From an uncultured Methanobacteriaceae archaeon (lineage in GTDB: Archaea > Methanobacteriota > Methanobacteria > Methanobacteriales > Methanobacteriaceae), in contig CAWJRO010000016.1 of assembly GCA_963845285.1 (NCBI GenBank), positions 53,908 to 117,907 of the forward strand: DNA of 64,000 nucleotides, in the 5' to 3' direction. The translations under genes were made by a program, and so were the position numbers. The notes beneath the pieces are model-generated. The model saw only the letters and a program-made list of their open reading frames with translations, ran no database searches and was not told the origin of the DNA. Below, in pieces: positions 1,572 to 48,628 of this stretch. Each line of letters begins with the position of its first letter. The stretch's first letter is position 1.

Positions 1572-1678
1572 GAGGCTGTCTCATGATTACTTTTGACATA
1601 TGTAATTTTGCTTATTTTTGAATTTAAAGTTTTATTTGTCCTTATTTTTTTGCAAATTCTGAACTATGAGACATCCTC
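1572..1678. mobile_element. MITE (type 1) derived from the GAGGCTGTCTCATGA-TIR IS family
   Basis: 107-bp non-coding element. It begins GAGGCTGTCTCATGATTAC and ends TATGAGACATCCTC. The internal sequence is near-identical to the elements at 27992-28097 and, as reverse complement, 48522-48628. Confidence 0.75.
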
Positions 1679-1780
1679 TATTTTGAATAAAAAGAAAACT
1701 TGGTATTAATGATAAAAAAGATAATAAAAAATATAAAAAATAAAAAAATATAAAAAAGATAGATAAAAGTCAAACTCTTT

Positions 1781-3292
1781 TTAGCCCATAAAAACCTTAG
1801 GAATGAATCTTAAAAGGTCGCTTGCCAGAAAATTGTATCCATACTCAGAAGCTGCAGAATCCCCTGCCACCCCATTTATGTAAGTCCCGAGACAAGCTGC
1901 TTCAAATGCATCATGACCTTGAGCAATCAAACCTCCAACAAGACCTGCCAGAACATCTCCAGTTCCTCCAACTGTCATTCCAGGATTTCCTGTTGCATTA
2001 AACTTTACGTACTTGCCATTTGAAACCATGTCCACAGAACCTTTAAGTAAAACAACGCACCCCGAGCTTTTAGAAGCTTCTAAAACTGTTTCAACTTTGT
2101 TTTCAAAGTTTTGAGGAACATTTAAATCAAAAACTGCCTTGAACTCCGCATTATGGGGTGTTAAAACAATTTCTCTTCCTAATTTTTTGGTTGATTTTTT
2201 AATTACATTCAGATCAATAAGTTTCAAAGCATCTGCATCGATTATCAGTGGTTTTTCAATTTTGCAGACCAACTCATCCAATGCAATAGCCGTATCATCT
2301 TTTCTACCGATTCCACAACCAACAACAACAGAATCAGCACTTTTTGAAAGTTCTATTATTCCATCAACATTTTCCTGATTTATAAAATTGCCTGAAATAT
2401 GGTCTGAAAGAGTTTTTACAATTAAATCCGGAGAATAAGATCTTATTGAAGATGCAACACTTGAAGGACATGCTAAAACCGAAATATCCGCCCCTGATCG
2501 TAGAGATGACATTGCTGCAAAGGCAGGTGCTCCTGAATAATCTTTACTCCCCCCTAAAACAAGTATTCTGCCATTTTGACCTTTATGGGATGAGTCATCC
2601 CTACTTTTAAGTCTTAAAAGATCTCCTGGACCTGTAAATAACTCAGCTTCTTTAGGTATCCCGATGTCACAAATCTGCACTTTCCCCACATGTTCAATTC
2701 TAGCATTTTTAAGCCCTGTTTTTGCCTGGTGGAATGTTATTGTGCTGTCCGCAATTACTGTTTTATCAGAAACTTCACCTGTAAGGGGGTCAAGACCACT
2801 TGGAATATCAACTGCCACTTTAAAACCTTTTAAACTGTTTATAATATCAATTGCACTTGATACAGGTTCTCTAAGTTTTCCTTTTATCCCAGTTCCAAGT
2901 ATTGCATCTACAACAACACCGGCATCCATGTCTTCACCTAATTTTTTGAGCTTAGATGAATCTTCAACCACATACATTTTAAGTGGATTTAGCCCTTTAT
3001 CTATCCTTTGCAGAACATCCCAGTTTATCCGGGCTTCATCTGATTTTATCCTTGACGGGTTGCTTAAGATGAAAACTTCGACTTCAAAACCCTTGTTTAG
3101 AAGGTACCTTGCTGCCACAAATCCATCACCACCATTACCACCCGTTCCCGCGAATATTACCACTTTACACGGTTTTATTATCTCAGATATCTTATCAGCA
3201 AGGCATCTTCCAGCATTTTCCATTAAAGATAACCTTGGAATCCCTAAAGCCGCAGCATTGGTATCTACAGCCATCATGTCCTTCGGAGTCAT
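1781..3292 (-). CDS. nnr: bifunctional NAD(P)H-hydrate repair enzyme Nnr (epimerase + ADP-dependent dehydratase)
   Basis: 503 aa. The N-terminal YjeF-N ([18 protein letters not shown]) and C-terminal carbohydrate-kinase-like domain (GGTGDVLAG) are both present. Confidence 0.85.
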
Positions 3293-3368
3293 GGTATCAC
3301 TACTTATAAATTATAATTTGAATAAAAAACTATACTTTATATGATTTGGAGTTTCATATTACTATTTA

Positions 3369-4654
3369 ATGACAATTGCGAACTCCAAAAATAAATTTGA
3401 ATCTGAGAGTATTAATAATTTTCCGGATGAAGATGAGAAATTTCAAGAATTCTTAACTGTTAAAAGGATAAAACCCGCAACGATCGAAAATTATAAAGTA
3501 ACAATCCGAAAATACCACCAAGCCATTGGATTAACTCCTTCTGAGTTCATAAAGAGGCTGAAGACGAAGAAGATGACGGTATAAGACTTAAAAGACGGAA
3601 AATTAAAGGTCATCTTATTAAATACATCCAATACTTACGAAGAAACGGTTTAAAAGAGACTAGTATCAGCAACTATATGATCTATGTTAAATCATTTTAT
3701 TCCACATTTGATATTGAACTTCCGAAAATTCCCATCAAGTTGAATTCACTCCCAAAAAAAGATTATAAAGAATGGGTAAACAAGGAAGACATTAAAAAGG
3801 CCATTAAATACTCTAATCACAAATATAAAGCTATAATTATTTTAATGACATCATCAGGGATGGGATCCGCAGAAATAAGAAGTTTGACATTTGATAACTT
3901 TCTTAAATCTCTAAAAGAATATCTTAAGATTCCATTAAAAAGTCCATACAATGTAGAAGAAATCAGGAACAGCCTTCCCACCAACCAGCACATTATACCA
4001 ACATGGCACATCCAGAGAATAAAAACAGGGGAATATTATTATACATTCTCAAGTCCTGAAAGTGTTGAAGCTATTTTAGATTATTTAGAATATCGTGAAG
4101 CTAAGAATAAACCAATAATAGGATTAAAGGAACCTCTATTTATCGGGAGAAAACCAGGTGATACTCTAAACAAGTACACATTAACATCTGCTTTCCAAAA
4201 AATCAATGATGACGCAGGTTTTGAAGTAATAGGAAATAAACGCTACTTCACTAGTCATGAACTAAGACGGTTTTTTTCTGATCAAGCATTTAAAAGTGGA
4301 ATGCAAGAAAGGGACATTAAATGGTTACGTGGACAAAAACCAAGGGATACATTAAACCGTTATGTTAAACCAGACCCTCAAAACCTTAAAATAGAATACA
4401 TGGAAAAACTATTACCCTGTGTAAGTGTAGAACCCGTAAAAATCTTAGAAATAGAAGAAAACGCTTATCGTAGGTTAAGTGAACTTGAAAAAGAAAGAAT
4501 TGAAATGAAAAACGAAATTGCAGACTTAAAAGGAATAGTAGAAATGATTATTGATCCTAAAACTAAGAAATCAGAAGAATTTTTAAGTGGACGGGAAGAG
4601 TTACTAAAAAAAATAAGCTCAAATAAAGATTCAATCCTAAAAGATAGTCAATAA
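3369..4654 (+). pseudogene. tyrosine recombinase/phage-type integrase, split by a frameshift near 3560-3600
   Basis: ORF 3369-3584 encodes an N-terminal core-binding (SAM-like) domain. ORF 3677-4654 encodes the catalytic domain (R...HELRR...NRYV). The downstream reading frame is already open from 3530 and overlaps the first ORF, so one frame change restores a single ~420-aa integrase. Confidence 0.7.
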
Positions 4655-5114
4655 TCTACTTTTTTTATTTTTCCTTCTTAATTTATCATATTTAATCAAG
4701 TATTCCCGATATTTTGTTGGATTTAACAATCTTCAGGTCTCCCCAAAAAAATTAATCAATGCCACAAAGATCCCTATTTTTGTAAATTATATAGTAGAAA
4801 AATCAAAAAATAGATTAACGTTAATATATATTATTAATTCCAATTTAAACGCCATATAACTTATTAAACACGATTTAAGTTTTATATTAGATTTTATTAA
4901 TCCTCACCGCATAATGTTCTATTTTAAAAGGTTTCTAAACGCTATATTAACTAATTTAAGTTTAAATATCTATTCTTTTATAAAAAAGAATTTTAATCAT
5001 CTTTCATAGTATATTAAATCTGCTTAAAAGTTTTAATTTTTCAATTACACGACAATGAAAAAGTATTTATGTTATTGTAGCATTAAATATACTATAAATT
5101 AAAGCATATGGGGG

Positions 5115-5297
5115 GTGAAAACGATTAGAGTGTCAAAAACGTTTAGTATGGATTCAAAATATATATTAGAAATAGATAACGCGATTTCGAATGGATTAGC
5201 AGATAATGCATCAGATTTTGTTGAACAAGCAATTAAAAAATTTTTAGAATATGATAAAAAAGTGGATAATAAGAAAATTAAAATTTTGGGAGATTAA
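5115..5297 (+). CDS. small protein, possibly ribbon-helix-helix-like
   Basis: 60-aa ORF with a GTG start preceded by a G-rich Shine-Dalgarno-like run. Its helix-loop-helix C-terminus (SDFVEQAIKKFLE) resembles CopG/RHH regulators. It ends 13 bp before the IS left end. Confidence 0.35.
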   Translation: MKTIRVSKTFSMDSKYILEIDNAISNGLADNASDFVEQAIKKFLEYDKKVDNKKIKILGD

Positions 5298-5309
5298 TGT
5301 TGAATTTAA

Positions 5310-7074
5310 GAGGCTGACCCATAATTATATTATTTTTTTATGGTTTGTTATTATTATCTTTTTTTTATTGGCTTTTTGTGATGGTTAATTATATATTTGT
5401 GGTTATTCTAGTATTTATTATAGTGTTTGTGTTTGTTTGGAGGTTATGTTTATGGTTTTACGTGAAGATAGAATGGGTCAGACTTTTTTAGTGCCAGTAG
5501 ATTTGAAAGAGTTCATTCCAAAGAATCATATATGTTTTTTTATTGTGGATATGGTTGATCAGTTAGATTTTAGTGATCTTGAGAATAAATATCGATATAA
5601 GCCTGGTAAACCTGCTTATTCGCGACGTATGTTAATGAGAATAGTTTTAATGGCTGCTGTGGATGGTGTTTTTTCATCGAGAAAGATTATGAAACTTACA
5701 AATGAAAATTTCATTTATACGTATTTATCTGGTGTTGAATCACCAGATTTTAGGACAATTTTAAGATTTAAAATTGAAGCTAAAAAATTGATAGAAAAAG
5801 CATTTCAGGCTACTGTATTAACTGCAAAGAAATCAGGTATGCTTAATTTGGAACATATCGCCATTGACGGCACAAAAATCAAAGCAAACGCTTCTAACAA
5901 CAATAATTTAACAGAAAAAGAAATACAAACAATTAAAAAAATAATTCAAAAAGGAATTGATGTTGACAAAGAAGAAGACGAATTATACGGTGAAGACAAC
6001 GATAATGATATTAAAATGCCTTTAAATAAAGAAGAAAGAAAAAAATTGATTAAAGAAATATTTAAAGAAATGGAAGATAATGAAAGCAAGAATAAAGAAG
6101 AAAATCGACCTAAAAAATCCGCAGTCAATATTATTGAGCAAGGACTTGAAAATCCTAAGAAAACTTTGGAAAAATTAGGAAAAGTTGAAAAACAACTAAA
6201 AAAAGGAGGACAAAAATCCGTTAGCTTAACAGATCCAGATGCACGCTGGATGAAAAATAAAAAGAATAAAATAGAATTCTCATACAATTCCCAAATCAGT
6301 GTAGACCATAAATCCGGAATAATAGTCACAAACAGCGTAACACAACAACCCACAGACCACCACCAACTAATACCACAAATAAAAAAAATAATCAAAACAA
6401 CAGGACCAATACCAACTAAAACATGCATAAGTGCCGATAATGGATACTTTACACAAGACAATATGGAATACATCCATGAACAGAAATTAGATGCATATAT
6501 ACCCAACCGAAAACAAGCACATACAGCTAAAACATGTAAAAAAGATATAAACAGATTTTCTAAGCACAATTTCAAATATGATCCTCATAATAAGTTATAT
6601 ATCTGTCCAAATAATAAAAAATTATCATATCAAAAGACTTATAGATATAATAACAAAATACGAGAACAATATTACACCCATGAGTGTTTAAAATGTTCAG
6701 ATCAAACCAGCTGCGCTGGAAAGAATCGTATGAAGATAATAACTGATTATAGTGGTGATTTAGCGAGAAAGATGTTTTTAAAGATGGAAACACCTGAAGC
6801 GAAATTGGAATTTGCAAAACGCAAAGAAACCGTTGAATGGCCATTTGGGAATATAAAACAAAATTTAAAGTTCACAGAATATTATACAAGGGGATTAGAA
6901 CAAATAAGAACAGAAAACAATCTAATATGCATAGCACACAACATAAAACGAATATTTAACATAATAACAAAAAAATCCACCCAAATAATCCCAAAAAACC
7001 CAACAACCCCTATCTAAAACAAAAATCCATCCAAAAAAAAAATAATTTTACAAAAAAAATAATGACTCAGCCTC
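5310..7074 (+). mobile_element. IS element copy A (diverged member of the DUF772/DDE IS5/IS1182-like family)
   Basis: TIRs GAGGCTGACCCA (5310) and TGACTCAGCCTC (ends 7074) enclose a single 526-aa transposase ORF. Same architecture as copies B and C. Confidence 0.65.
5437..7017 (+). CDS. DDE transposase with N-terminal DUF772-type domain (IS5/IS1182-like), copy A
   Basis: MVLREDRMGQTFLVP...FIPKNHICFF... is the hallmark N-terminus of IS5/IS1182 transposases. C-terminal DDE region. About 55% identical to the 528-aa copies. Confidence 0.8.
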   Translation: MEVMFMVLREDRMGQTFLVPVDLKEFIPKNHICFFIVDMVDQLDFSDLENKYRYKPGKPAYSRRMLMRIVLMAAVDGVFSSRKIMKLTNENFIYTYLSGVESPDFRTILRFKIEAKKLIEKAFQATVLTAKKSGMLNLEHIAIDGTKIKANASNNNNLTEKEIQTIKKIIQKGIDVDKEEDELYGEDNDNDIKMPLNKEERKKLIKEIFKEMEDNESKNKEENRPKKSAVNIIEQGLENPKKTLEKLGKVEKQLKKGGQKSVSLTDPDARWMKNKKNKIEFSYNSQISVDHKSGIIVTNSVTQQPTDHHQLIPQIKKIIKTTGPIPTKTCISADNGYFTQDNMEYIHEQKLDAYIPNRKQAHTAKTCKKDINRFSKHNFKYDPHNKLYICPNNKKLSYQKTYRYNNKIREQYYTHECLKCSDQTSCAGKNRMKIITDYSGDLARKMFLKMETPEAKLEFAKRKETVEWPFGNIKQNLKFTEYYTRGLEQIRTENNLICIAHNIKRIFNIITKKSTQIIPKNPTTPI

Positions 7075-7374
7075 TTCAGTTTTAGTTTAAATATTTATTT
7101 TAATCCTAAAACCCACAAAACATTCCCTTTCTAATCATTGCCCCAAAAATTTTACTTCGTTAAATCCATATAACGAAGTAAATGTATATTCCAGGATAAC
7201 ATTTAAATACAGAACTTACTATATAAAACGCTCCCCCAATCCCACTCGTCCGATTTCTTTAGCCAGTAAAATTCAACTTATACGAATGTAAAAGAAAAAA
7301 AGCCAAAACTAAACTTTTTTTTACTATTCAACTTCAATTTTAAATGATTTTTATGAAAAATTGAATTTTAAAAT

Positions 7375-9105
7375 TTAAAACTTCCAGATATCCAGAGCTA
7401 TTTTTGCAAGTTCGGATGATCTATCTTGTATCTGTTTTTTACCCCATTCTCTTTGTTGAGACAAGTGACGATTTAATTTTAACCCACTATTTTTGAATCC
7501 ATTTGGCAAGTCCCTTTTTTCTTTAAATGTTTTATTAGAATATTCTTGGTTGTATCCAGTTAATGTTAAATTACCAATAGATTCCAAATGTTTATTCTGT
7601 ATAAATTCCCACTCTTCCCCCAAATCTTTTTTCCACTCTTTACTAATAACTTGAGGCATAATATGCTCAATTTGCATTTCACTTAATTTTACCATTTCTT
7701 TATTTTCAGGGTATCGTTCTATCTCTTCGAGTATGTATCTGAAAACTTTTTTGTAAGAAGTGCTTTCCTTTAGACACTTTCTAAACTCATTTTTCTCAGG
7801 CATACGTTGTGTTCCAGTTCCATTAGCTAATGTTTCTTTTAGAGATTGAGTTATATTAGATTTATCTAGTGACCCATATATTCTTGGGAAATATGAATTC
7901 AATGCATTTACTGGAATACCACAAACATTCCTCCTTACCACAAAAGTTTCAATTGCTTGTAAACAGTCAACAAAATCTTCTATAAAGAACTCTACATTTG
8001 GATTTTTATAATCATCATATAATTTAAGAAGCAGTGGATAAGCAGTAGTACTGTCGAGACGGTTAAATTTATCGAAATAAATTCTTAATGCATTTTCTTT
8101 CTCAGTTTTAGGGTACAAAAATTTACTATAATATTCAGCAAATCGCTTAAGTTTTTCCATTATCTTAATGACACCATCTTCAGTCATGGCATTTTTATCT
8201 AGAAACCCTTTAAATGTTGTGTATAATCTATTAAACGTTGGTAAGTTTCCATCCATAGCTAAATAATGTCTTATGAAACTATCCATTTTCTTGTCTCTGA
8301 CTTGCCTTTTACTTTCAGATTCTTTATCTCCCTCTATTAATGTATGCAAGGGTAACCATATGTTTTTATAAGATTTTTGCTGATTTTTTGGATTTAATTT
8401 CATAAATAAATAATTTCGAACTAGATCTGATTGGGTTAGTGGTACTCCTGTTCCGTTAAGGGTTTCAAATATTAAATAGGGATCATCATTTTCTTCCAAA
8501 GTGATATCAACAATTGAGAAATTAGATAAAATAGTATTTTTAATTAAGTCCAATCTTTCAATCTCATTTATTTCATTAAATTTTCCCTTAAAAAAGCTAT
8601 AAGTCTTGAAAATCCGGTTTTTTGATTCTTTGATCTCCTTTCCTTCCATAATACTAAAAAATATATTTCGATCGTTCTGAGTAGGTACTAATTTATATTT
8701 ATGATGTGGATGATGTTGATTCAGTAAGTAATAATCATCAATTTCAAACTTAGTTATGTGTTCTGGATTTAATTCTATTATCCTTTCCCTAATTGTAGCG
8801 AGTATAATATATATTGTGGTCAATCGTTGTTGTCCATCTACTACAGTAAACTCTGAAACAGTAGAAGCGCCCCCGTCTGTAAGCATCGTTACAAAAGAAC
8901 CAAAAAAGTGATGTTCCATTTTATAATAGTTAGTTTCTGTTTCTTGTATGTCCTCCCACAATCTTTCTAAATCTTTCTTCCCCCAAACGTATTCTCTTTG
9001 AAATAACGGGATTATGAATTGTTTACTTCCTTCTAAAAAGACTCGAATTTGAGTATCATTTGCTTTCATGTTCTTTCCCTCTAGATTTTTGAAATGCTTT
9101 CTCAT
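7375..9105 (-). CDS. GmrSD-like type IV (modification-dependent) restriction endonuclease, DUF262 + DUF1524 fusion
   Basis: The N-terminal ParB/DUF262 motifs FQREYVW and DGQQRLT are present. The C-terminal DUF1524 His-Me finger is present (EHIMPQ...W...HLESIGNLTL...N). 576 aa; the true start may be the internal MKANDTQI. Confidence 0.8.
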   Translation of the reverse strand: MRKHFKNLEGKNMKANDTQIRVFLEGSKQFIIPLFQREYVWGKKDLERLWEDIQETETNYYKMEHHFFGSFVTMLTDGGASTVSEFTVVDGQQRLTTIYIILATIRERIIELNPEHITKFEIDDYYLLNQHHPHHKYKLVPTQNDRNIFFSIMEGKEIKESKNRIFKTYSFFKGKFNEINEIERLDLIKNTILSNFSIVDITLEENDDPYLIFETLNGTGVPLTQSDLVRNYLFMKLNPKNQQKSYKNIWLPLHTLIEGDKESESKRQVRDKKMDSFIRHYLAMDGNLPTFNRLYTTFKGFLDKNAMTEDGVIKIMEKLKRFAEYYSKFLYPKTEKENALRIYFDKFNRLDSTTAYPLLLKLYDDYKNPNVEFFIEDFVDCLQAIETFVVRRNVCGIPVNALNSYFPRIYGSLDKSNITQSLKETLANGTGTQRMPEKNEFRKCLKESTSYKKVFRYILEEIERYPENKEMVKLSEMQIEHIMPQVISKEWKKDLGEEWEFIQNKHLESIGNLTLTGYNQEYSNKTFKEKRDLPNGFKNSGLKLNRHLSQQREWGKKQIQDRSSELAKIALDIWKF

Positions 9106-9361
9106 CTTAATTGTACTTCACTATTTTCATTAAAGAATGATTCCTCATTATTATTGTATTAAATAAATTTTAATATATAAAATAAATAGGATTTTGTAGA
9201 ATTGTAAAATCTTTTTTGAAAATGAGAGCAATAAGTAAAATATTTAGGCAAATTTTTTAAAAAACTAGGAAATAAAACTTTATACCTCGCTGAAATAATG
9301 ATAATGATTAATTAGAATACTTAATAAATTTTTTTAAAGTGAATGGGTTACCAATTTTATT

Positions 9362-10720
9362 GGCACTGTCAAAAACTTGGGGGTTGGGTGTTAAACAGTT
9401 TTTTCTGGTTTTGAATTTCTTTTCTAATGTTTATTCGTGACATTGCACCTGTTTTAATCTTCATTAACCTCTTAACACTTTTAGGAAAGGTTTTTTGAAA
9501 GCTATTCTCTATTCTGTTTGAAGTTCGTTCAATATTTCCATCTTCCAAGAATGCAAAGAAGGTTTTAAAATAAGGCACCAAAGAATCACAGATAATTGAT
9601 TGAATAACCTCTGAATAATCACTAATTTTACTTAAAATTTCGTTAAATTTCTTTCTAGCATTTTTAAAAGATTTACTCTCAAATAAACTGAATAATTCTA
9701 GTTTTTCTTTCCGTATTTTCTTTATTTCTTCTCTATTTAACTTATTTTCTCGGATATGTTTCTTTATGATTTTGTTAAAGTTTTTAAGTGTGTGAAAATA
9801 GCACCATTGGTGTTTAAACCCTAATTTTTCAATAATTGGTTTATATTTCTCATCTAAATCTGTAGTTATGGCAATTTTATTTTTATTCCTCGTATTTTGC
9901 CATAAAAACTCTTGTATATTCTTAGAATTCTCTTTAGAGTATATTTCATCAGCAACAATAATATCCTGTTTACTGTCGAATAAAGTGAATCTGTAATTCC
10001 ACACACCTTTAATTTTAACCCACTCCACATCAAAAATGTAATATCCTGAATAACGGTTTTTAGACTCGTTTTTATGGTTTTTATATCCCAGTATCCAGTT
10101 TTCAATTGTTTGTTGTGAAATATTGACTCCTGTGTCTTTTTTAACTTTATAAGCAATACTTCGCACTGATCCAAAGAATAAACCCACTAATTCAATACAT
10201 CTACTCTTAAAATCATGCGTGAAATTGCTATTATCCTCAACAACTTCCGAAATATCCGTATTGAATTTTTTACCACATTTTTTACATTTATAACTTTGAA
10301 TTTCTGTTTTAACAACGCCTTTATCATAAAAATAAAGTGTTCTTTCGTTAACTCCATTTTTAATCACAAATTTACTGAAACACTCCGGACAAAAAGGTTT
10401 AAACATCTCAATATGGAAAATATTCTTTTTAAACCATTTATGTAACGTTCTAGATACCTTATAATCATTTGGAAGTGATTTTAATTGGTTTTCAACATAT
10501 TTTGACAAATCTTCACAAAAGTAGGAAAGTTTATAACCTTGATCAAACAAACCATTAATTGGAGCAAGTGTTTTTCTTTTTAGCATAGAAAATACTATGC
10601 TCCCTCTTATTATAAAAGTTTTTAGGTTTTTGTTTTAGAAAATAATGGGTTTTAACAGGAATAGAAAAAATTGTTTATCGAAACACAAATTTCAAAACCC
10701 CCCAAGTTTTTGACAGTGTC
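9362..10720 (-). mobile_element. IS6-family insertion sequence with 8-bp target-site duplication
   Basis: Ends are GGCACTGTCAAAAACTTGGGGG (9362) and CCCCCAAGTTTTTGACAGTGTC (ends 10720), a ~22-bp TIR starting with the IS26-like GGCACTGT. The flanking direct repeat ATTTTATT (9354-9361 and 10721-10728) is an 8-bp TSD. Confidence 0.8.
9369..10586 (-). CDS. IS6-family DDE transposase with N-terminal zinc-finger extension
   Basis: The core motif D-x-E-W-V-K-I-K-G-x-W-x-Y (FDVEWVKIKGVWNYRF) matches the IS6 DETYVKIKGxWxYLYRAID signature. CxxC...CxxC zinc ribbon in the N-terminus. 405 aa. Confidence 0.75.
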   Translation of the reverse strand: MLKRKTLAPINGLFDQGYKLSYFCEDLSKYVENQLKSLPNDYKVSRTLHKWFKKNIFHIEMFKPFCPECFSKFVIKNGVNERTLYFYDKGVVKTEIQSYKCKKCGKKFNTDISEVVEDNSNFTHDFKSRCIELVGLFFGSVRSIAYKVKKDTGVNISQQTIENWILGYKNHKNESKNRYSGYYIFDVEWVKIKGVWNYRFTLFDSKQDIIVADEIYSKENSKNIQEFLWQNTRNKNKIAITTDLDEKYKPIIEKLGFKHQWCYFHTLKNFNKIIKKHIRENKLNREEIKKIRKEKLELFSLFESKSFKNARKKFNEILSKISDYSEVIQSIICDSLVPYFKTFFAFLEDGNIERTSNRIENSFQKTFPKSVKRLMKIKTGAMSRINIRKEIQNQKKLFNTQPPSF

Positions 10721-10929
10721 ATTTTATTTAAGTCCTCAAACTCTTTTTTTAAAAGTTGCTTTATAAATTTATATTACTCTATTTCTTTTAAATTAATTTT
10801 AATAATAAATCAAGATAAAAAAATATGTATAAACAAATGTAAAAGTGATATCATGTTAAAACAGGCACCTACTACTAAAAGAGATAAAAATTCGTTTATA
10901 ATGCATTTTTTGATATATCCGAAAAAAAT

Positions 10930-11139
10930 ATGAGTGAAACCCATTACAATCGTTTAAAATGGTATAATATCTATGATAATAGTAAAATTAATGTAAGTAT
11001 TAAGACCAATAGTACTTCTGGAGCTTTTATTGATGTTACTGTAAAATATACTCCGGAATTACCGCATGAACTTGATAAATTAATAGAAAAACATGAAAAA
11101 GAATTTCAGGAGTTTTATAAGGAGAGTATGAGTTATTAA
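10930..11139 (+). CDS. hypothetical protein
   Basis: 69-aa ORF between two IS elements. No recognisable domain. Confidence 0.3.
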   Translation: MSETHYNRLKWYNIYDNSKINVSIKTNSTSGAFIDVTVKYTPELPHELDKLIEKHEKEFQEFYKESMSY

Positions 11140-11350
11140 CCTTCAAAATTTCATAAAATGGTTTATAATCTTGATGATTTAATTAAGTAGATGACAAATT
11201 AAAATGAGTAAAAGCTGATCTAATCATTATATGTAAACTTCGTAATATAGAAGTTTAACGAAGTTAGATATTTTAGATATTTAATTTAAATATAAAACTC
11301 AAAAAAGTATATAAAAACCATCTAACATAGGTACTCGCAGGTGGTTAAAC

Positions 11351-11518
11351 ATGGAAAATGAACAAAAAATGAAACAAATGAACCTGAAACTAACAGAAAA
11401 ACAACTTGATCTTTTGGAACAGCTCTCAAATTCAATGGGAAATGTTAGTAAATCAGATCTAATTAGAATAGCCATAACAGAATATATTATGAAATATAAT
11501 GATTTGTTGAAAGCATAA
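11351..11518 (+). CDS. ribbon-helix-helix (CopG/Arc family) DNA-binding protein
   Basis: 55-aa ORF missing from the supplied track (shorter than 60 aa). Translation MENEQKMKQMNLKLTEKQLDLLEQLSNSMGNVSKSDLIRIAITEYIMKYNDLLKA gives a beta-strand followed by two helices. Its stop is 1 bp before the TSD of the adjacent IS. Confidence 0.6.
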   Translation: MENEQKMKQMNLKLTEKQLDLLEQLSNSMGNVSKSDLIRIAITEYIMKYNDLLKA

Positions 11519-11526
11519 ATATGAAA

Positions 11527-12773
<1,247 letters not shown>

Positions 12774-13128
12774 ATATGAAATAGATTAAATTATTCAATT
12801 TATCTTATTTTACCATTTTTAAATTTTTTTTTCTAATATGTTCATAATCGTCTACTTATTTTATAACATTTTAAAGAGTTTTTAGAGGAATTATAATCTT
12901 AAATAATATTTAACCTTTTTTTTATTGCTATTTAAAAACATAATCTTTATAAGGAATATAGTAATACAATTGAATTGTAAGTAAATCTTTTTAGAAGATA
13001 TTTACTTGCTAATAATTAATAGGAGGAATTTAAATGTAATAAAAGTCTTTCTAAGTTTTATCGAAGATCAGTTTTTATATTTAGTTAAATACCCCCATAA
13101 TTTTAACAAATTATATTGAAGGTGAATC

Positions 13129-19911: not shown

Positions 19912-19963
19912 TTAGGATTTATTTATTTTTTTATTTTTTTTAAGGTATAGGAGATGGTTTATA

Positions 19964-20293
19964 GTGTTAAATGTGAAAAATAGGGTATTGTTATGGATTC
20001 TTTTGTTGGTAGTGTGTTTGATAAACTTTTTTAGTTCTAAAATTATGATTTTTGCAAATGGTGCTTTAATGATTTGTGCGATATCTTTCATTATTTTGGA
20101 TTCTGTGGATGAAAATTATCATGGAAAATTATCAATGGGAATTGCTTTTTTACTTTTATTATATGTTTTAATTTGGATTTTACTGAATAAAATAACTGCA
20201 GAAGTGTTAATTGCTTTAATAATTTTGGTTTTTTATATAATTATCAGGATCTTAATGTTTTTAGATATAATTCCAAAAAATATTTTAAATTAA
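19964..20293 (+). CDS. small membrane protein (hypothetical)
   Basis: 109-aa ORF with 3 predicted TM helices, immediately downstream of the adhesin gene. A GGAG motif is upstream. Confidence 0.4.
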   Translation: MLNVKNRVLLWILLLVVCLINFFSSKIMIFANGALMICAISFIILDSVDENYHGKLSMGIAFLLLLYVLIWILLNKITAEVLIALIILVFYIIIRILMFLDIIPKNILN

Positions 20294-22910: not shown

Positions 22911-24671
22911 GAGGCTGTCTCATGATTGACTTTTTTTTGGATTTTCTTTTCTGATTTTTTTCCTTTTAAGGGTTATATTTATATTTAAGGTGTTACTATA
23001 TTTTATTTAGAGATTTATAGTTTTTTGGTGGTGTTTTTTATGGCTTTGAGAGAAGATAGGATTGGTCAGACTTGGTTGGTGCCTAGGCGTGTTATGGATT
23101 TTATTCCGGAAAATCATATTTGTTATTTTATTGCTAATTTGGTGGAAGAGTTAGATTTTAAAAAAATAGACCAGAGATACAGGTGCACTAAGGGTAAGGC
23201 AGCTTATTCTCGCCGAATGTTATTGAGAGTGGTTATTATGGCTTCGGTTGATGGTGTGTTTTCATCTAGGCGGGTTGCAAGGCTTGCGGAGGAAAATGTG
23301 ATTTATATGTATCTTTCAGGTATGGATAAGCCGGATTTCCATACAATTTGCAGATTTAAAATCGAATGCAGCAAACAAATTGAAGAAGCGTTTGAAATGA
23401 CTGTGAATGTTGCTAAAAATATGGATATGGTTCAATTGAACCATATCGCAATAGATGGTACTAAAATCAAAGCTAACGCTTCCCCAGCTAATCTAATTAA
23501 TCAAAAAGAAATACATACAGTTCGTCAGATATTAAAAAAAGGAATAAAAACCGACAAGAAAGAAAACAAAATTTACGGCAATAAAAGAGGTGACGAAATA
23601 CCACCAGAACTAACCAACCGTAAAAAAGTCCACGAAATAATCCAAAAACTAAAAAACCAAACCAAAACCACTAATGAAAATAATGCTCCTAAAGAGGAGA
23701 ATAAGCTGCATAGATCTTCAGTTAAGCTTCTGGAACGGGCCTGTTCCGGTAGTCCGGAAAAGGATCGTGTTTTGAAAAAATTGGATCATGCTGAAAGGGA
23801 GTTAGAAAAGACACCACAAAAGACTGTTAGTTTAACAGACCCTGAATCACGGTGGATGATGAATAAAAAGAATCGAATGGAACTTTCATATAATATGCAA
23901 ATCGCAGTGGATTATGATTCAGGAATCATACTCGCCAGCACCATAACACAAGACCCTACAGACCACCACCAACTAATACCACAAATAGAACAAATACAAG
24001 AAACAATAGGACCCTTACCCAATTATACAAAGATTAGCGCAGATAACGGGTATTTTACACAAACAAATCTACAATATCTAGAAGAAAATGGATTAGATGG
24101 TTACATACCTAACAGAAAACAGGCACATAAACATAAAAACAAGTTAAAAAAGGATAAACTATTTTCCAAGTACAATTTCAAATATAATCATGTCGAAGAC
24201 ATTTATATTTGTCCAAATAACAGAAAATTAACTTATAAAAAGACATATGAGTATAATAACACTTGTATGCGCCAATATTATTGTAATGATTGTTTAAAAT
24301 GTTCATATCAGACATTATGTGCTGGTAAGAATCGTTTTAGGATTATAACTGATTATGGTGGTGTTTTATCAAAGCGTATGGCTTTGAAAATGGAAACAAA
24401 TCAAGGCAAGGAAGAGTTTGGTAAACGAAAACAGACCGTTGAATGGCCATTTGGGAATATAAAAGAGAATTTAAGATACACAGAGTTCCTAACACGCGGC
24501 ATGAACGGAATAAAAACAGAAAAAAACCTAATTAACATCTCACATAACATAAAAAGAATCTATAATCATAATAATTCTAAAATAAATAGGCAAAATCAAA
24601 TAAATACCTGAAAAAAGAGGATTTTTTATAAAAACTTAAAAAATTAAAAACTTAATTCATGAGACAACCTC
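22911..24671 (+). mobile_element. IS element copy B (IS5/IS1182-like, 1761 bp)
   Basis: Left TIR GAGGCTGTCTCATGATTGAC at 22911. Right end TCATGAGACAACCTC at 24671. Identical to copy C over its whole length. Confidence 0.85.
23025..24611 (+). CDS. DDE transposase (DUF772 N-terminal domain, IS5/IS1182-like), copy B
   Basis: 528 aa. [15 protein letters not shown]...[10 protein letters not shown]... with C-terminal DDE and CxxC region. Confidence 0.85.
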
Positions 24672-24723
24672 TTTAAAAATAAAAAAATATTAAAAATAGA
24701 AAAATGTAGGTATTAAAGAATAC

Positions 24724-25795: not shown

Positions 25796-25902
25796 GAGGC
25801 TGTCTCATAGTTTTAAATTTGCAAAAAAATAATAGTAAACAGAGCTTTAAATTCAAAAATAATGAAAATTATAGAAGTAACAAATAATCATGAGACAGTT
25901 TC
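25796..25902. mobile_element. MITE (type 2) with IS-family TIRs
   Basis: Begins GAGGCTGTCTCATAG and ends TCATGAGACAGTTTC. Internal sequence about 90% identical to the element at 38561-38668. Confidence 0.7.
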
Positions 25903-27991: not shown

Positions 27992-28097
27992 GAGGGTGTC
28001 TCATGATTACTTTTGACATGGGTAATTTTGCTTATTTTCGAGTTTAAAACCTTATTTGTCCTTATTTTTTGCAGATTTTGAATTATGAGACAACCTC
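27992..28097. mobile_element. MITE (type 1) with IS-family TIRs
   Basis: GAGGGTGTCTCATGATTAC...AATTATGAGACAACCTC. About 90% identical to the MITE at 1572. Flanked by TTTAA on both sides. Confidence 0.75.
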
Positions 28098-36061: not shown

Positions 36062-36151
36062 TTTAGTTTCTATGAGCCTGGTTTCTATTTTTTTGATACT
36101 TCTTTCCAATTTTAGAAAAAAGGAATTATTTCACTGTTTTATCTAGAAAAA

Positions 36152-37912
36152 GAGGCTGTCTCATGATTGACTTTTTTTTGGATTTTCTTTTCTGATTTTT
36201 TTCCTTTTAAGGGTTATATTTATATTTAAGGTGTTACTATATTTTATTTAGAGATTTATAGTTTTTTGGTGGTGTTTTTTATGGCTTTGAGAGAAGATAG
36301 GATTGGTCAGACTTGGTTGGTGCCTAGGCGTGTTATGGATTTTATTCCGGAAAATCATATTTGTTATTTTATTGCTAATTTGGTGGAAGAGTTAGATTTT
36401 AAAAAAATAGACCAGAGATACAGGTGCACTAAGGGTAAGGCAGCTTATTCTCGCCGAATGTTATTGAGAGTGGTTATTATGGCTTCGGTTGATGGTGTGT
36501 TTTCATCTAGGCGGGTTGCAAGGCTTGCGGAGGAAAATGTGATTTATATGTATCTTTCAGGTATGGATAAGCCGGATTTCCATACAATTTGCAGATTTAA
36601 AATCGAATGCAGCAAACAAATTGAAGAAGCGTTTGAAATGACTGTGAATGTTGCTAAAAATATGGATATGGTTCAATTGAACCATATCGCAATAGATGGT
36701 ACTAAAATCAAAGCTAACGCTTCCCCAGCTAATCTAATTAATCAAAAAGAAATACATACAGTTCGTCAGATATTAAAAAAAGGAATAAAAACCGACAAGA
36801 AAGAAAACAAAATTTACGGCAATAAAAGAGGTGACGAAATACCACCAGAACTAACCAACCGTAAAAAAGTCCACGAAATAATCCAAAAACTAAAAAACCA
36901 AACCAAAACCACTAATGAAAATAATGCTCCTAAAGAGGAGAATAAGCTGCATAGATCTTCAGTTAAGCTTCTGGAACGGGCCTGTTCCGGTAGTCCGGAA
37001 AAGGATCGTGTTTTGAAAAAATTGGATCATGCTGAAAGGGAGTTAGAAAAGACACCACAAAAGACTGTTAGTTTAACAGACCCTGAATCACGGTGGATGA
37101 TGAATAAAAAGAATCGAATGGAACTTTCATATAATATGCAAATCGCAGTGGATTATGATTCAGGAATCATACTCGCCAGCACCATAACACAAGACCCTAC
37201 AGACCACCACCAACTAATACCACAAATAGAACAAATACAAGAAACAATAGGACCCTTACCCAATTATACAAAGATTAGCGCAGATAACGGGTATTTTACA
37301 CAAACAAATCTACAATATCTAGAAGAAAATGGATTAGATGGTTACATACCTAACAGAAAACAGGCACATAAACATAAAAACAAGTTAAAAAAGGATAAAC
37401 TATTTTCCAAGTACAATTTCAAATATAATCATGTCGAAGACATTTATATTTGTCCAAATAACAGAAAATTAACTTATAAAAAGACATATGAGTATAATAA
37501 CACTTGTATGCGCCAATATTATTGTAATGATTGTTTAAAATGTTCATATCAGACATTATGTGCTGGTAAGAATCGTTTTAGGATTATAACTGATTATGGT
37601 GGTGTTTTATCAAAGCGTATGGCTTTGAAAATGGAAACAAATCAAGGCAAGGAAGAGTTTGGTAAACGAAAACAGACCGTTGAATGGCCATTTGGGAATA
37701 TAAAAGAGAATTTAAGATACACAGAGTTCCTAACACGCGGCATGAACGGAATAAAAACAGAAAAAAACCTAATTAACATCTCACATAACATAAAAAGAAT
37801 CTATAATCATAATAATTCTAAAATAAATAGGCAAAATCAAATAAATACCTGAAAAAAGAGGATTTTTTATAAAAACTTAAAAAATTAAAAACTTAATTCA
37901 TGAGACAACCTC
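36152..37912 (+). mobile_element. IS element copy C (identical to copy B)
   Basis: Same TIRs (GAGGCTGTCTCATGA at 36152, TCATGAGACAACCTC ending 37912). The 1761 bp are identical to 22911-24671, including the upstream leader. Flanked by (G)AAAAA on both sides. Confidence 0.85.
36266..37852 (+). CDS. DDE transposase (IS5/IS1182-like), copy C
   Basis: 528 aa, identical to the ORF at 23025-24611. Confidence 0.85.
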
Positions 37913-38016
37913 GAAAAAATAATAAAAAAATAATAATTTTTATATGTTCTAATCATCAAAATTATCTACTATAAAAACATGGGGTTATCGGGACCATCTT
38001 TGATGGGGGGGATTGA

Positions 38017-38511
38017 ATGATGAAAAATGGTGCTATTGGTATTTTAGCCATAATATTAGGTTTAATAGTTATGGCATTCCCACTTGCAGGTGTCATAACC
38101 GCAAGTTTTATTGCAGGATTCGCAGTTATTATGATAGCTATCTGGCTACTTATATCCAGCATAGTTCAATTCGATTCAAACAAAACAGTAGGCATTCTTA
38201 ACCTGATAATCGGCATCCTTGCCTTGATTGTGGGCATAGGATTAATATTTAACCCGGTTCTTTTCAGCTTTTTAACAGCAATCGTTCTTTACCTTGCAGG
38301 TATCTTCTTATTAGTTTCAGGTATAATCTCGCTGATTCCAGGAATGGAAAACAAGAAATCATTATGGTCCGGTATTTCCAGCATAATACTGGGTATTTTA
38401 TACATAATAATAGGAATTTACGCCTTTAACCCACTTTATCTTGGAGTGTTGATAGGAGTCTGGTTAATAGTTAGTGGAGTATTCCTATTTTTAGACACAA
38501 GTATGGAATAA
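38017..38511 (+). CDS. HdeD/DUF308 family membrane protein (paralogue)
   Basis: 164 aa. Aligns along its whole length with the ORF at 28384-28869 (…GLIAIILGLIIIAFPLAGV… vs …GILAIILGLIVMAFPLAGV…). Confidence 0.6.
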   Translation: MMKNGAIGILAIILGLIVMAFPLAGVITASFIAGFAVIMIAIWLLISSIVQFDSNKTVGILNLIIGILALIVGIGLIFNPVLFSFLTAIVLYLAGIFLLVSGIISLIPGMENKKSLWSGISSIILGILYIIIGIYAFNPLYLGVLIGVWLIVSGVFLFLDTSME

Positions 38512-38560
38512 GAAAAATTAACCGATAACCCATATCCAAATTTTTTTATTTATCTATCAA

Positions 38561-38668
38561 GAGGCTGTCTCATAGTTCAAAATTTGTAAAAAAAATAATA
38601 GTAAATAAAGCTTTAAATTCAAAAATAATGAAAATTATATAGATCACAAATAATCATGAGACAGCTTC
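38561..38668. mobile_element. MITE (type 2) with IS-family TIRs
   Basis: GAGGCTGTCTCATAGTTC...AATCATGAGACAGCTTC. ATCAA is present on both flanks. Confidence 0.7.
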
Positions 38669-38685
38669 ATCAATTAAAAAAAGGT

Positions 38686-39528: not shown

Positions 39529-39672
<144 letters not shown>

Positions 39673-39711: not shown

Positions 39712-39788
<77 letters not shown>

Positions 39789-39886
39789 TTAGTTATAAAG
39801 TTACGTTTTGTTTATATTTAAACCTTACGGAGGGATTTATGTAATTTATATGGAATTTAAGAATTTTTATGCATTTATTATGCAAA

Positions 39887-46758: not shown

Positions 46759-47547
46759 TTATTTTAACAGGAAAACTTCTTCTGGCAGAGCTTCGTTGGT
46801 TATCCATCTTCTTAAAACCTTATTGAAGAGTTCGGGGTATTCTAAATTCCACATATGTCCCACTTTAGGGGCGGTTATTGCCTTGGCGTTTGGTAAAACT
46901 TTGATCAGATCTTCAGCTGATTCTTTTATGACTTTGTACTCCTTCTCACCGACCATCACCAGTACAGGAACATCTACCTTTTCTAACCGCGAGGGCATCT
47001 GGAAGAGCATGTTCTCGTGCAATATTCTGTCCAGAGAGTCTGGTCTGATTAGGCGTGTGGATTCCTTAAAATCTTTAAAATAACTTTTGGATATGTTGTA
47101 GGTTCTCATATTGGCCTTTATGAAAAAATCTGTATCTTTTACAGGTGCATATACCTTGAAAGTATAATCCAAAAGTTTTAGCATTGCTTCAGTATAAGGG
47201 ATGTTGTGGACAAGGGTTCCACTGATTAACACGTGATCTACCACTTCAGGAGCTGTACTGAGAATTTCCAAAATTAACTGCCCGCCCAGTGATATTCCCA
47301 CAAGATGAGCCCGTCCTCCGTGAGCACGAGTTCTTATAATATCAACCACCATCTCAGCAGCACTTTTCATGGTGAAAGGTTTTACATCCACACTTTTTCC
47401 ATGTTCAGGAAGGTCAGGGATCAACAGATGGTAGTCTTTAAATACTTCAAGCTGTTCTGTCCACATCCAGCCAGATATTCCACCACCGTGGAGGAATATG
47501 ATGGTTTCACTGTTTTCCTGGCCCCTCTCTTCAACGTACAAATTCAT
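46759..47547 (-). CDS. alpha/beta-fold hydrolase
   Basis: IIFLHGGG...GISLGG nucleophile elbow (G-x-S-x-G). 262 aa. Confidence 0.85.
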
Positions 47548-47741
47548 GATTATGCTTGTTTTTAATTAAATTTAAGTTTATTTTTAATATTCATTGGATT
47601 TTCTTTACCCAAATTTTTAGGACATACTTATCAAATTTATTGAACATTCCCTTTAATCATTCATGGCACAACTCTTTGTTGAATAAATAAAATGAAAAAA
47701 TAAAGAGTTTTTTTATGTGATGGCTACGATGTTCATCTTTT

Positions 47742-48308
47742 TCAACTTAATTTTTTAATTAAAGTAGCCACATTAAAACCAAACTTCCTTATAGCCTTCA
47801 TTCCCTCCTTATCATCCTGCACTTCTCCAGGTGCCCATCCAAAAACCATATTCCAACTATTTGAACCTGGAACAATCATATCATTAATGAAAAAGAACAT
47901 TAACATTTCTTGTATAGTAGATGTGTGACCGCCTCTACGTGCAACTGCTACAGGGCCGCCAATTTTCCCTGATAAAAAATCATCATTAGATCCTGAGACC
48001 ATTCCTATTCTCTGCAACGCTGACATCATGTCTCCACGTGCAGTTCCAAAATAAACTGGTGTCCCCACAATAAAACCTTCAGATTCTCTAATTTTATTTA
48101 TAATATCGTTTAATCCGTCATTAATGCTGCATTCATTCAATTCATCACATTTTTTACAAGCAACGCATGATTTGATATCTTTACCTGCAAATGATATTAT
48201 TTCCGCTTTTAAACCTTCCTTCTCTATTACATTAGCACATTCCTCTAAAACTTGATATGTATTACCATTTGGACGTGGACTGGCACATAATAACAGAACT
48301 TTTTTCAT
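47742..48308 (-). CDS. iron-sulfur flavoprotein / NADPH-dependent FMN reductase family
   Basis: Flavodoxin-like fold (LLLCASPRPNGNT). Compact Cys cluster CVACKKCDELNEC typical of archaeal Isf proteins. 188 aa. Confidence 0.75.
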   Translation of the reverse strand: MKKVLLLCASPRPNGNTYQVLEECANVIEKEGLKAEIISFAGKDIKSCVACKKCDELNECSINDGLNDIINKIRESEGFIVGTPVYFGTARGDMMSALQRIGMVSGSNDDFLSGKIGGPVAVARRGGHTSTIQEMLMFFFINDMIVPGSNSWNMVFGWAPGEVQDDKEGMKAIRKFGFNVATLIKKLS

Positions 48309-48521
48309 ATAACTTCACCTCTTAAACTTATTTGTGTTCCATTTATCTTTATTTGGACTTGAATTAATTGCTATTACTCTCATTGTTTTTCTGATGAGCA
48401 ACTGCACAATTCAATTCTTGTAACAAATGCCATGATGTTCAGCAGAGTTTTAAAAACTGCAGAATGGATCAAAACCCTTGAATAACTCCTATATTAAATA
48501 TACTGTATTTTCAGGTTATGT

Positions 48522-48628
48522 GAGGTTGTCTCATAATTCAAAATCTGCAAAAAAATAAGGACAAATAAGGTTTTAAACTCGAAAATAAGCAAAATTACAC
48601 ATGTTAAAAGTAATCATGAGACACCCTC
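48522..48628. mobile_element. MITE (type 1, inverted orientation)
   Basis: GAGGTTGTCTCATAATTC...AATCATGAGACACCCTC. Reverse complement of the 27992-28097 element. ATGT on both flanks (4-bp TSD). Confidence 0.75.

What the first reader, a model, noticed from the sequence alone, without database searches (positions are those of the whole stretch)
1572..48628. One IS family present as 3 full copies plus 5 non-autonomous MITEs sharing its terminal repeats
Full elements at 5310-7074 (diverged), 22911-24671 and 36152-37912 (identical) all end in GAGGYTGTCTCATGA / TCATGAGACARCCTC. Five ~107-bp elements carry the same ends but no ORF: 1572-1678, 25796-25902, 27992-28097, 38561-38668 and 48522-48628. 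They fall into two internal-sequence types (three plus two). Several have 4-5-bp flanking direct repeats (ATGT, ATCAA, TTTAA). This is a MITE family mobilised in trans by the resident transposase and indicates ongoing transposition activity in this genome.
Basis: seen in the sequence. Interest (0 to 1): 0.6.

Follow-up and report, generated by a model that had tools for sequence, protein, structure and literature searches.

The report
IS1182 insertion sequences with cognate MITEs
A methanogen (Methanobacteriaceae) genome segment carries two identical copies of an intact IS1182-family jumping gene, one diverged cousin, and five 107-bp gene-less mini-elements that share the active element's end sequences; this is an ordinary transposon-plus-MITE arrangement.

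Summary
IS_B (22911-24671) and IS_C (36152-37912) are 100% identical 1761-bp IS1182-family elements with 14/15 terminal inverted repeats and 5-6-bp target duplications. Five 106-108-bp ORF-less elements share those ends (17 nt left, 13 nt right). Four have 4-5-bp duplications and all are intergenic.

One detail is wrong. The element at 5310-7074 (IS_A) is a different IS1182 member (56% aa identity). Its ends are GAGGCTGACCCATAA / GAGGCTGAGTCATTA, not the quoted motif, and it has no duplication.

The mini-elements' interior is unrelated to the IS, so they are classic IR-only MITEs, not deletion derivatives.

Two more identical IS_B copies and three more MITEs lie on contigs of one ENA metagenome. 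Single MITE copies occur in two other assemblies, one labelled Methanobacteriaceae. A syntenic relative (~80% nt identity) lacks all insertions.

The identical IS copies point to recent IS activity. The MITE copies differ by 3-26%, and several have mutated ends or duplications, so ongoing MITE movement is not shown.

IS1182-derived MITEs are already described in archaea (ISMac2 in Methanosarcina acetivorans). This is a new member of a known kind, of low interest.

The parts
22911..24671 (+). IS_B: intact 1761-bp IS1182-family insertion sequence. IRL is GAGGCTGTCTCATGA and IRR is GAGGTTGTCTCATGA (14/15). TSD is TTTAA at 22906-22910 and 24672-24676.
23040..24611 (+). IS_B transposase gene: 523 aa from the ATG, or 528 aa from the upstream TTG at 23025. 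It covers positions 5-487 of the 488-position IS1182 profile.
   Evidence: NF033551, 376 bits vs cutoff 270; identical to P0253
36152..37912 (+). IS_C: second copy, 100% identical to IS_B. TSD is GAAAAA at 36146-36151 and 37913-37918. The transposase gene is at 36281-37852.
5310..7074 (+). IS_A: a different 1765-bp IS1182-family element. Ends are GAGGCTGACCCATAATTA / GAGGCTGAGTCATTATTT, with no TSD. The transposase ORF is 5437-7017 (526 aa; likely start 5452) and is 56% identical to that of IS_B.
   Evidence: (99.4% identical to P0049)
1572..1678 (+). MITE M1, 107 bp, subtype A. TSD is TATTT at 1567-1571 and 1679-1683. It is intergenic, upstream (on the + strand) of the 3' end of the YjeF-type gene 1781-3292(-).
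27992..28097 (+). MITE M3, 106 bp, subtype A (97% identical to M5). TSD is TTTAA at 27987-27991 and 28098-28102. It lies between the Metallophos and DUF308 genes.
48522..48628 (-). MITE M5, 107 bp, subtype A, in the opposite orientation. The 4-bp TSD is ATGT at 48518-48521 and 48629-48632. It lies between the divergent FMN-reductase and Ppx/GppA genes.
25796..25902 (-). MITE M2, 107 bp, subtype B. One terminal repeat is mutated (GAAAC...) and there is no clean TSD (ttcgt / ttcag). It lies between the LPG-synthase and Ftr genes.
38561..38668 (-). MITE M4, 108 bp, subtype B. TSD is ATCAA at 38556-38560 and 38669-38673. It lies between the convergent DUF308 and metallo-beta-lactamase genes, 648 bp from IS_C.

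Best explanation
The window comes from a pseudomurein-type methanogen (family Methanobacteriaceae). It holds an intact IS1182-family insertion sequence in two identical copies (IS_B/IS_C), a second and more distant IS1182-family element (IS_A), and five copies of a ~107-bp MITE family.

Each MITE is a non-coding cassette bounded by the same ~15-bp terminal inverted repeats as IS_B.

Inferred mechanism:
- The 523-aa DDE transposase of IS_B binds the GAGGNTGTCTCAT termini and cuts there.
- It integrates the excised or copied segment into AT-rich intergenic DNA with staggered cuts, which repair turns into 4-6-bp (mostly 5-bp) duplications.
- The MITE offers the same termini, so it is (or was) moved in trans by the same enzyme.

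Shown:
- family assignment and intact transposase;
- shared termini;
- shared duplication length and target type;
- multiple copies;
- recent IS amplification.

Inferred:
- the transposition chemistry;
- trans-mobilisation itself;
- which IS variant originally amplified the MITE.

The MITE copies are diverged, so most insertions predate the current IS burst.
For: - **Family:** NCBIfam IS1182 equivalog scores are 376 and 391 bits against a cutoff of 270, near full length. Pfam finds DUF772 + DDE_Tnp_1 + DDE_Tnp_1_6.
- **Catalytic motifs:** AIDGT, ADNGY and VEWPFGNIK are conserved in both transposases. This is read from the alignment; calling them DDE-motif blocks rests on general knowledge of IS5/IS1182 enzymes.
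- **Shared ends:** the MITE left end equals IS_B IRL for 17/17 nt, then ACTTTT after a 1-nt indel. The MITE right end equals IS_B IRR for 13/13 nt. The motif occurs 13 times against 0.17 expected.
- **Fit to IS_A:** IS_A's ends fit the MITE ends less well (10/13).
- **Duplications:** IS copies have TTTAA, GAAAAA, TTAAAT and TAATA. MITEs have TATTT, TTTAA, ATCAA, TATTA, ATGT and AATAAA.
- **Chance level for duplications:** an exact 5-bp match has chance probability 0.002-0.007 per site. Four or more of 8 MITEs gives P about 1e-7.
- **MITE interior:** it is homologous among MITE copies but shows no significant similarity to IS_B (P = 0.08-0.47 against shuffles).
- **More copies elsewhere:** two further 100% identical IS_B copies and three more MITEs lie on contigs L008 and L009 of metagenome ERZ25039477.
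- **Other lineages:** MITE homologues occur in a Methanobacteriaceae MAG (L001) and in a 2.36-Mb metagenome contig (L010).
- **Absence in relatives:** syntenic loci L005-L007 of a related species (~80% nt, Ftr 92% aa) have no IS_B, IS_C or any MITE.
- **Precedent:** archaeal MITEs often share fewer than 20 nt of IR with their partner IS. This includes two MITE families assigned to the IS1182-family element ISMac2 (PMC3852290).
Against: - No transposition event was observed, and no precise empty site could be reconstructed. The relative's intergenic DNA is too diverged to align.
- MITE copies differ by 3-26%, and none are identical.
- M2, L8a and L9 have mutations in the terminal repeats. M2, L8a and L1 have imperfect duplications.
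- The MITE right end departs from IS_B IRR after position 13 (AG/AA instead of GA). The present IS_B may therefore not be the original or optimal partner.
- Duplication length varies from 4 to 6 bp.
- The genome-wide copy number is unknown. The source genome is not in the contig index, and pattern scans of public collections found only two other loci.
Confidence: 0.82

Rival explanations
1. The MITEs are fossils. An earlier or different IS1182-clade element with better-matching right ends amplified them, and the resident IS_B can no longer move them. The shared 13-17 nt would reflect common descent of the termini, not a current functional partnership.
For: - MITE copies are 74-97% identical, whereas four IS_B copies are 100% identical.
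- Several terminal repeats and duplications have decayed.
- The MITE right end diverges from IS_B IRR after nt 13.
- The IRL GAGGCTGTCTCATGATTGA is conserved across IS relatives whose transposases are 76-94% identical. Many clade members could therefore have been the partner.
- MITE homologues occur in two other assemblies, L001 (a Methanobacteriaceae MAG) and L010. This argues for an old family.
Against: - M1, M3, M4 and M5 keep intact termini and perfect duplications.
- M3 and M5 are 97% identical.
- The syntenic loci of the ~80%-identical relative lack the MITEs, so the insertions postdate that split.
- IS_B's own IRL and IRR agree with each other only over the first 15 nt. The enzyme probably needs no more than the region the MITE retains, apart from positions 14-15 on the right.
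Confidence: 0.14
2. The 107-bp units are host repeats: a hairpin-forming regulatory or structural element, or a preferred IS target like the inverted-repeat targets replaced by IS1272, another IS1182-family member. On this reading the IS ends resemble them because the IS captures or replaces such structures.
For: - IS1272 is reported to target inverted-repeat structures without making duplications (PMC5678879).
- Each of the four identical IS_B copies lies 146-1124 bp from a MITE.
- The units fold into a terminal stem with z-scores of about -3.
- The central block AATTTTGCTTATTTTTGAATTTAAAGC is better conserved than its surroundings.
Against: - The MITEs have their own 4-6-bp duplications of the same length as the IS's.
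- No IS copy is nested in or replaces a MITE. All IS_B copies have clean duplications in unrelated AT-rich DNA.
- The predicted structure is only the terminal-repeat stem, with no conserved internal helix.
- There is no Rfam match.
- The units occur in both orientations relative to neighbouring genes.
- The IS-MITE proximity is only marginally beyond chance once both are restricted to intergenic spacers.
Confidence: 0.03
3. The short elements are independent internal-deletion derivatives of IS_B or IS_A.
For: They share termini with IS_B.
Against: - All copies share one homologous ~75-nt interior (89% mean column identity).
- That interior has no significant match anywhere in IS_B and gives no BLAST hit beyond the first 24 nt.
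- Independent deletions would leave different IS-derived interiors.
Confidence: 0.01

Closest known systems
MITEs assigned to ISMac2 (IS1182 family) in Methanosarcina acetivorans (Kamoun et al. 2013, PMC3852290, Table 4)
   Same: - Archaeal (methanogen) host.
- The partner IS belongs to the IS1182 family.
- Short non-coding elements with terminal inverted repeats like the IS.
- A short duplication (4 bp) for one of the two families.
- Multiple copies (14 and 7).
- Similarity to the IS limited to the ends.
   Different: - Different order of methanogens (Methanosarcinales vs Methanobacteriales).
- Larger elements (160/169 bp vs 106-108 bp).
- Longer repeats (25-26 nt vs about 15-17 nt).
IS1182 family insertion sequences (ISfinder family; NCBIfam NF033551)
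   Same: - Transposase matches the family profile above its cutoff over nearly its full length.
- DUF772 N-terminal plus DDE_Tnp_1/DDE_Tnp_1_6 catalytic region.
- Length of about 1.76 kb, terminal inverted repeats, and short duplications.
   Different: - Best public matches: IS_B/C is 94% aa identical to P0001, and 91% to a protein named from a Methanobacterium paludis MAG. IS_A is 99.4% identical to P0049.
- No ISfinder name could be checked, because there is no ISfinder access.
- IS_A lacks a duplication.
IS1272 of Staphylococcus (IS1182 family) with its proposed inverted-repeat-replacing insertion mode (PMC5678879)
   Same: Same IS family, and an association between the IS and short inverted-repeat structures in the genome.
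   Different: Here both the ISs and the short elements make ordinary 4-6-bp duplications in non-repeat AT-rich DNA. No IS replaces a short element. The canonical mode therefore fits, not IR replacement.

Membership tests
IS1182 family (IS_B/IS_C and IS_A) | Transposase scores above the curated cutoff of the IS1182 family profile over its full length | tested here: met
   NF033551 gives 376.4 bits (IS_B, profile positions 5-487 of 488) and 391.5 bits (IS_A, 4-487 of 488) against a cutoff of 270. All other IS-family profiles score far below their cutoffs.
IS1182 family (IS_B/IS_C and IS_A) | DDE catalytic domain with the DUF772 N-terminal region | tested here: met
   (run on IS_A): PF05598, PF01609 and PF13751 all score above gathering. 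The same three domains are precomputed for IS_B homologues. Conserved blocks AIDGT / ADNGY / VEWPFGNIK are visible. Assigning them as D, D and E is by analogy and was not tested.
IS1182 family (IS_B/IS_C and IS_A) | Single-ORF element of about 1.3-2 kb, bounded by terminal inverted repeats and short target duplications | tested here: met
   Sizes are 1761 and 1765 bp. IS_B repeats match 14/15. Duplications of 5-6 bp flank all four identical IS_B copies. IS_A has imperfect repeats and no duplication. The family size range is from memory of ISfinder.
MITE (miniature inverted-repeat transposable element) | Small size and no coding capacity | tested here: met
   The elements are 106-108 bp. No ORF of 100 aa or more overlaps them, and an element of this size cannot encode a transposase.
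MITE (miniature inverted-repeat transposable element) | Terminal inverted repeats matching those of an autonomous IS in the same genome | tested here: met
   17/17 nt at the left end and 13/13 nt at the right end against IS_B. The motif is enriched 13 vs 0.17 expected.
MITE (miniature inverted-repeat transposable element) | Flanking target-site duplications of the same length as the partner IS | tested here: met
   Exact 5-bp repeats at M1, M3, M4 and L9; 4 bp at M5; 6 bp at L8b; 4/5 at L8a and L1; none at M2. P is about 1e-7 by chance. The IS makes 5-6 bp.
MITE (miniature inverted-repeat transposable element) | Multiple dispersed copies with a homologous interior | tested here: met
   Five in the window, three on L008/L009, and one each on L001 and L010. 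The genome-wide count was not obtainable.
MITE (miniature inverted-repeat transposable element) | Mobilised in trans by the partner's transposase; insertion polymorphism or empty sites | tested here: inconclusive
   The syntenic loci of a related species lack all insertions. At ~80% identity the spacers cannot be aligned to show precise empty sites. No conspecific genome was found. Mobilisation itself is not testable with these tools.
ISMac2-derived MITE families of M. acetivorans | Sequence homology to those MITEs or to ISMac2 ends | not tested
   Only the published table was read, and no sequences were available. Element size and repeat length differ.

The most novel reading that the evidence does not exclude
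The 107-bp family may be more than junk. Its central block (AATTTTGCTTATTTTTGAATTTAAAGC) holds a TATA-like TTTAAA and oligo-T runs. It is conserved across three Methanobacteriaceae-type assemblies, better than the neighbouring internal segments. The family could therefore act as a portable archaeal promoter/terminator module. Alternatively it could mark sites where the IS_B transposase preferentially lands, since all four identical IS_B copies sit 146-1124 bp from a MITE. It may also be the first MITE family described for Methanobacteriales: no report was found in the searchable library, and a 2024 review cites Methanobacterium thermoautotrophicum as unusual for lacking MITEs.
Probability: 0.08. 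Interest if true: 0.4.

Novelty: new member of a known kind. Interest (0 to 1): 0.2.

Why it matters
- It documents an active IS1182-family element and a cognate MITE family in a Methanobacteriaceae methanogen. MITEs have hardly been reported for this group. A 2024 review (PMC10969869) notes that Methanobacterium thermoautotrophicum lacks them, and no paper in the searchable library links IS1182 or MITEs to Methanobacteriales.
- For annotation, the five MITEs should be masked as repeats, and IS_A should be named separately from IS_B/C.
- The identical IS copies are likely points of assembly breakage and rearrangement in MAGs of this lineage.
- Biologically this is the expected behaviour of a DDE insertion sequence and opens no new question.

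Tried and rejected
- **Exact-protein look-ups.** Look-ups for the window's Ftr, the 528-aa ORF, P0249 (identical to the window Ftr) and P0049 (99.4% identical to the IS_A transposase) all returned 'not on record'. The source contig and further IS_A copies could not be fetched.
- **Precise empty sites.** MAFFT alignment of the M2 spacer against L005/L006 gave no interpretable gap, because the intergenic DNA is too diverged at ~80% genome identity. No conspecific genome exists in the Ftr cluster.
- **Internal-deletion origin.** Local alignments of the MITE interior against IS_B ends and the whole IS were not better than shuffles. Rejected.
- **Composite transposon IS_C + DUF308 gene + M4.** Rejected. 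Each element has its own duplication, and the DUF308 gene is only a 57% paralogue of 28384-28869.
- **Extended flank homology between IS_B copies.** This was suggested by megablast overhangs. It turned out to be AT-rich low-complexity sequence plus the duplications.
- **Structured RNA.** No Rfam family matched, and folding gives only the terminal stem.
- **Bacterial promoter/terminator scan.** Uninformative for an archaeon.
- **Viral carriage.** No match to the MITE pattern or the IS left end in viral contigs.
- **Pattern scan hits.** L002 and L011 are chance matches in a Bacteroidales sequence.
- **Filee et al. 2007 review.** The review of archaeal ISs is not held in the library.

Full report
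**Check of the observation**

- A search for GAGGYTGTCTCATGA with up to two mismatches gives 13 hits, against 0.17 expected from shuffles. These are both ends of the elements at 22911-24671 and 36152-37912, both ends of four short elements, and the left end of a fifth. The fifth element's right end has three mismatches.
- The two long elements are identical over 1761 bp.
- They align end to end with 89% mean column identity.
- A profile built from them finds no further copy in the 64 kb.
  - Its ends are GAGGCTGACCCATAATTA and GAGGCTGAGTCATTATTT.
  - It has no flanking direct repeat.
  - Its transposase is 56% identical to that of the other two, and its DNA is 69-74% identical to theirs.
  - It is a second insertion sequence of the same family.

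**What the long elements are**

- Both transposases match the NCBIfam IS1182 equivalog far above its cutoff: 376 and 391 bits against 270, covering essentially the whole profile.
- Pfam run on IS_A finds DUF772, DDE_Tnp_1 and DDE_Tnp_1_6. The same three domains are precomputed for IS_B homologues.
- The blocks AIDGT, ADNGY and VEWPFGNIK are conserved between the two proteins. By analogy with IS5/IS1182 enzymes these are taken as the catalytic D, D and E regions. This is established knowledge and was not tested here.
- The IS_B ORF from its ATG (523 aa) is identical to database protein P0253, which is recorded on 10 contigs.
- Two of those contigs were retrievable: L008 and L009, from ENA assembly ERZ25039477. 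Each carries a 100% identical 1761-bp IS_B at a different locus.
- All four identical copies have perfect duplications: TTTAA, GAAAAA, TTAAAT and TAATA.
- Diverged relatives in the same metagenome (94% and 91% DNA identity; L003, L004) keep the left end GAGGCTGTCTCATGATTGA and make 5-bp duplications. So do ISs whose transposases are 76-88% identical (L012-L015).
- IS_B is therefore an intact, recently amplified IS1182-family element.

**What the short elements are**

- In a common orientation, the left end equals IS_B IRL over 17/17 nt, then ACTTTT after a one-base indel.
- The right end equals IS_B IRR over 13/13 nt.
- Position 5 varies (C/T/G/A), just as it differs between IS_B's own two ends.
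- IS_A's ends fit less well (10/13).
- The ~75-nt interior is shared among the short elements. It has no significant similarity to any part of IS_B (P = 0.08-0.47 against shuffles).
- They are therefore not deletion derivatives. They are MITEs of the type that share only the terminal repeats with their partner.
- Kamoun et al. describe exactly this as typical for archaeal MITEs. Their list includes two MITE families assigned to the IS1182-family element ISMac2 of Methanosarcina acetivorans (PMC3852290).
- Duplications flank M1 (TATTT), M3 (TTTAA), M4 (ATCAA) and M5 (ATGT). M2 has none.
- Three further copies occur on L008 and L009: one with an exact 5-bp repeat, one with a 6-bp repeat, and one matching at 4 of 5 positions.
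- An exact 5-bp flanking match has a chance probability of 0.002-0.007 per site in this sequence. Four or more of eight gives P of about 1e-7.
- All five window copies are intergenic and occur in both orientations.
- Folding predicts only the terminal-repeat stem, and no Rfam family matches.

**Host and distribution**

- The window encodes formylmethanofuran:H4MPT formyltransferase (24724-25617, minus strand) and a 2260-aa protein with pseudomurein-binding repeats. At about 33% G+C, this places it in Methanobacteriales/Methanobacteriaceae.
- Its Ftr is identical to P0249 and 92% identical to a cluster from fermentation and digester metagenomes. The next hits are at 76% or less.
- Exact-pattern scans for the MITE found very few loci:
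  - one genuine copy in the species-representative genome collection (L001, a Methanobacteriaceae MAG);
  - one in the JGI metagenomes (L010, on a 2.36-Mb contig, with a degraded right end);
  - none in viral contigs.
- The family is thus narrow in distribution and appears to be expanded in this organism. The true genome-wide copy number could not be obtained.

**Age and activity**

- Syntenic loci from the 92%-Ftr relative (L005-L007, about 80% nucleotide identity in genes) keep the gene order. They contain no IS_B, IS_C or MITE.
- For example, the Ftr-to-TrkA-like spacer is 79 bp there, against 1.9 kb here. The insertions are therefore lineage-specific.
- Precise empty sites cannot be reconstructed because the spacers do not align. 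No conspecific genome was found.
- The IS_B copies are identical, but the MITE copies are 74-97% identical to each other.
- Several MITEs have mutated terminal repeats (M2 GAAAC; L8a; L9) or decayed duplications.
- The evidence therefore supports a recent burst of the IS and an older, possibly still mobilisable, MITE population. It does not show ongoing MITE transposition.

**Rivals considered**

- *Fossil MITEs* amplified by another member of the IS clade remain plausible. The right end departs from IS_B IRR after position 13.
- *A host repeat or IS target*, in the manner of the inverted-repeat-replacing insertion proposed for IS1272 (PMC5678879), is unlikely. The MITEs have their own duplications, and no IS is nested in one.
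- *Independent deletion derivatives* are excluded by the shared, IS-unrelated interior.
- The proximity of every identical IS_B copy to a MITE (146-1124 bp) is noted. It is only marginally beyond what two intergenic-restricted elements would show.

**Verdict**

- This is an ordinary transposon landscape: two IS1182-family insertion sequences, one of them recently active, and a cognate 107-bp MITE family.
- The kind is well known, including for IS1182 in archaea.
- The members appear undescribed, and the Methanobacteriaceae host is a small extension of the known range.
- No paper in the library links IS1182 or MITEs to this group. One review notes that Methanobacterium thermoautotrophicum lacks MITEs (PMC10969869).
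- Interest is low.

Noticed in passing
window 3300-20850: About 17.5 kb is absent from the syntenic relatives L005-L007, where the YjeF-type and TrkA/ion-channel genes are about 80 bp apart. The island carries a tyrosine integrase (3677-4654), IS_A, a GmrSD type IV restriction enzyme (7375-9105, minus strand) and two further transposase-like genes. It also carries a 2260-aa surface protein with pseudomurein-binding repeats, a beta-helix and a C39 peptidase domain (13129-19911), which contains 456-bp internal repeats.
   Followed up: partly
window 9369-10586 (-) and 11540-12593 (-): Two more transposase-like genes. One is a 405-aa zinc-finger protein with only weak IS66/ISH6/IS6 profile hits, all below cutoff. 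The other is a DDE_Tnp_1 (IS4/IS5-like) transposase that appears split into 217-aa and 120-aa ORFs. Element boundaries were not determined.
   Followed up: partly
window 52683-56640: Direct repeats of about 120 bp (52683-52802 and 56528-56640, 74-85% identical) bracket two genes. One is a 454-aa protein with a Dsr2-like sirtuin N-terminus and a TIR domain (53045-54409, minus strand). The other is a 635-aa protein with no family match (54449-56356, minus strand). This may be an inserted anti-virus defence islet.
   Followed up: no
window 39529-39672 (-) and 39716-39789 (-): Rfam's tRNA model matches a 144-nt stretch that ARAGORN did not call, presumably an intron-containing archaeal tRNA. It lies next to tRNA-Cys(GCA).
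   Followed up: no
window 22911-25902 and 36152-38668; L008 2907-5017; L009 6730-8744: Each of the four identical IS_B copies has a MITE within 146-1124 bp, and in L008 and L009 within the same spacer. A rough Poisson estimate made by hand from the MITE density gives a combined P of about 0.004. The signal weakens to marginal once both elements are restricted to intergenic DNA. It could reflect shared preference for long AT-rich spacers or local attraction.
   Followed up: partly
window 38017-38511 (+): An extra DUF308 membrane-protein gene sits between IS_C and M4, at a site that is a 171-bp spacer in the relatives. It is a 57% paralogue of 28384-28869, the gene next to M3. Each flanking element has its own duplication, so this is not a composite transposon.
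   Followed up: yes
L008 55-942 and 1639-2526; L004 9613-11374: L008 shows a tandem duplicate of an FeS-assembly/AAA_17 gene pair just upstream of a MITE and IS_B, which could be real or an assembly artefact. The L004 copy of the IS (91% DNA identity) has a frameshifted transposase, so it is a decayed copy.
   Followed up: no
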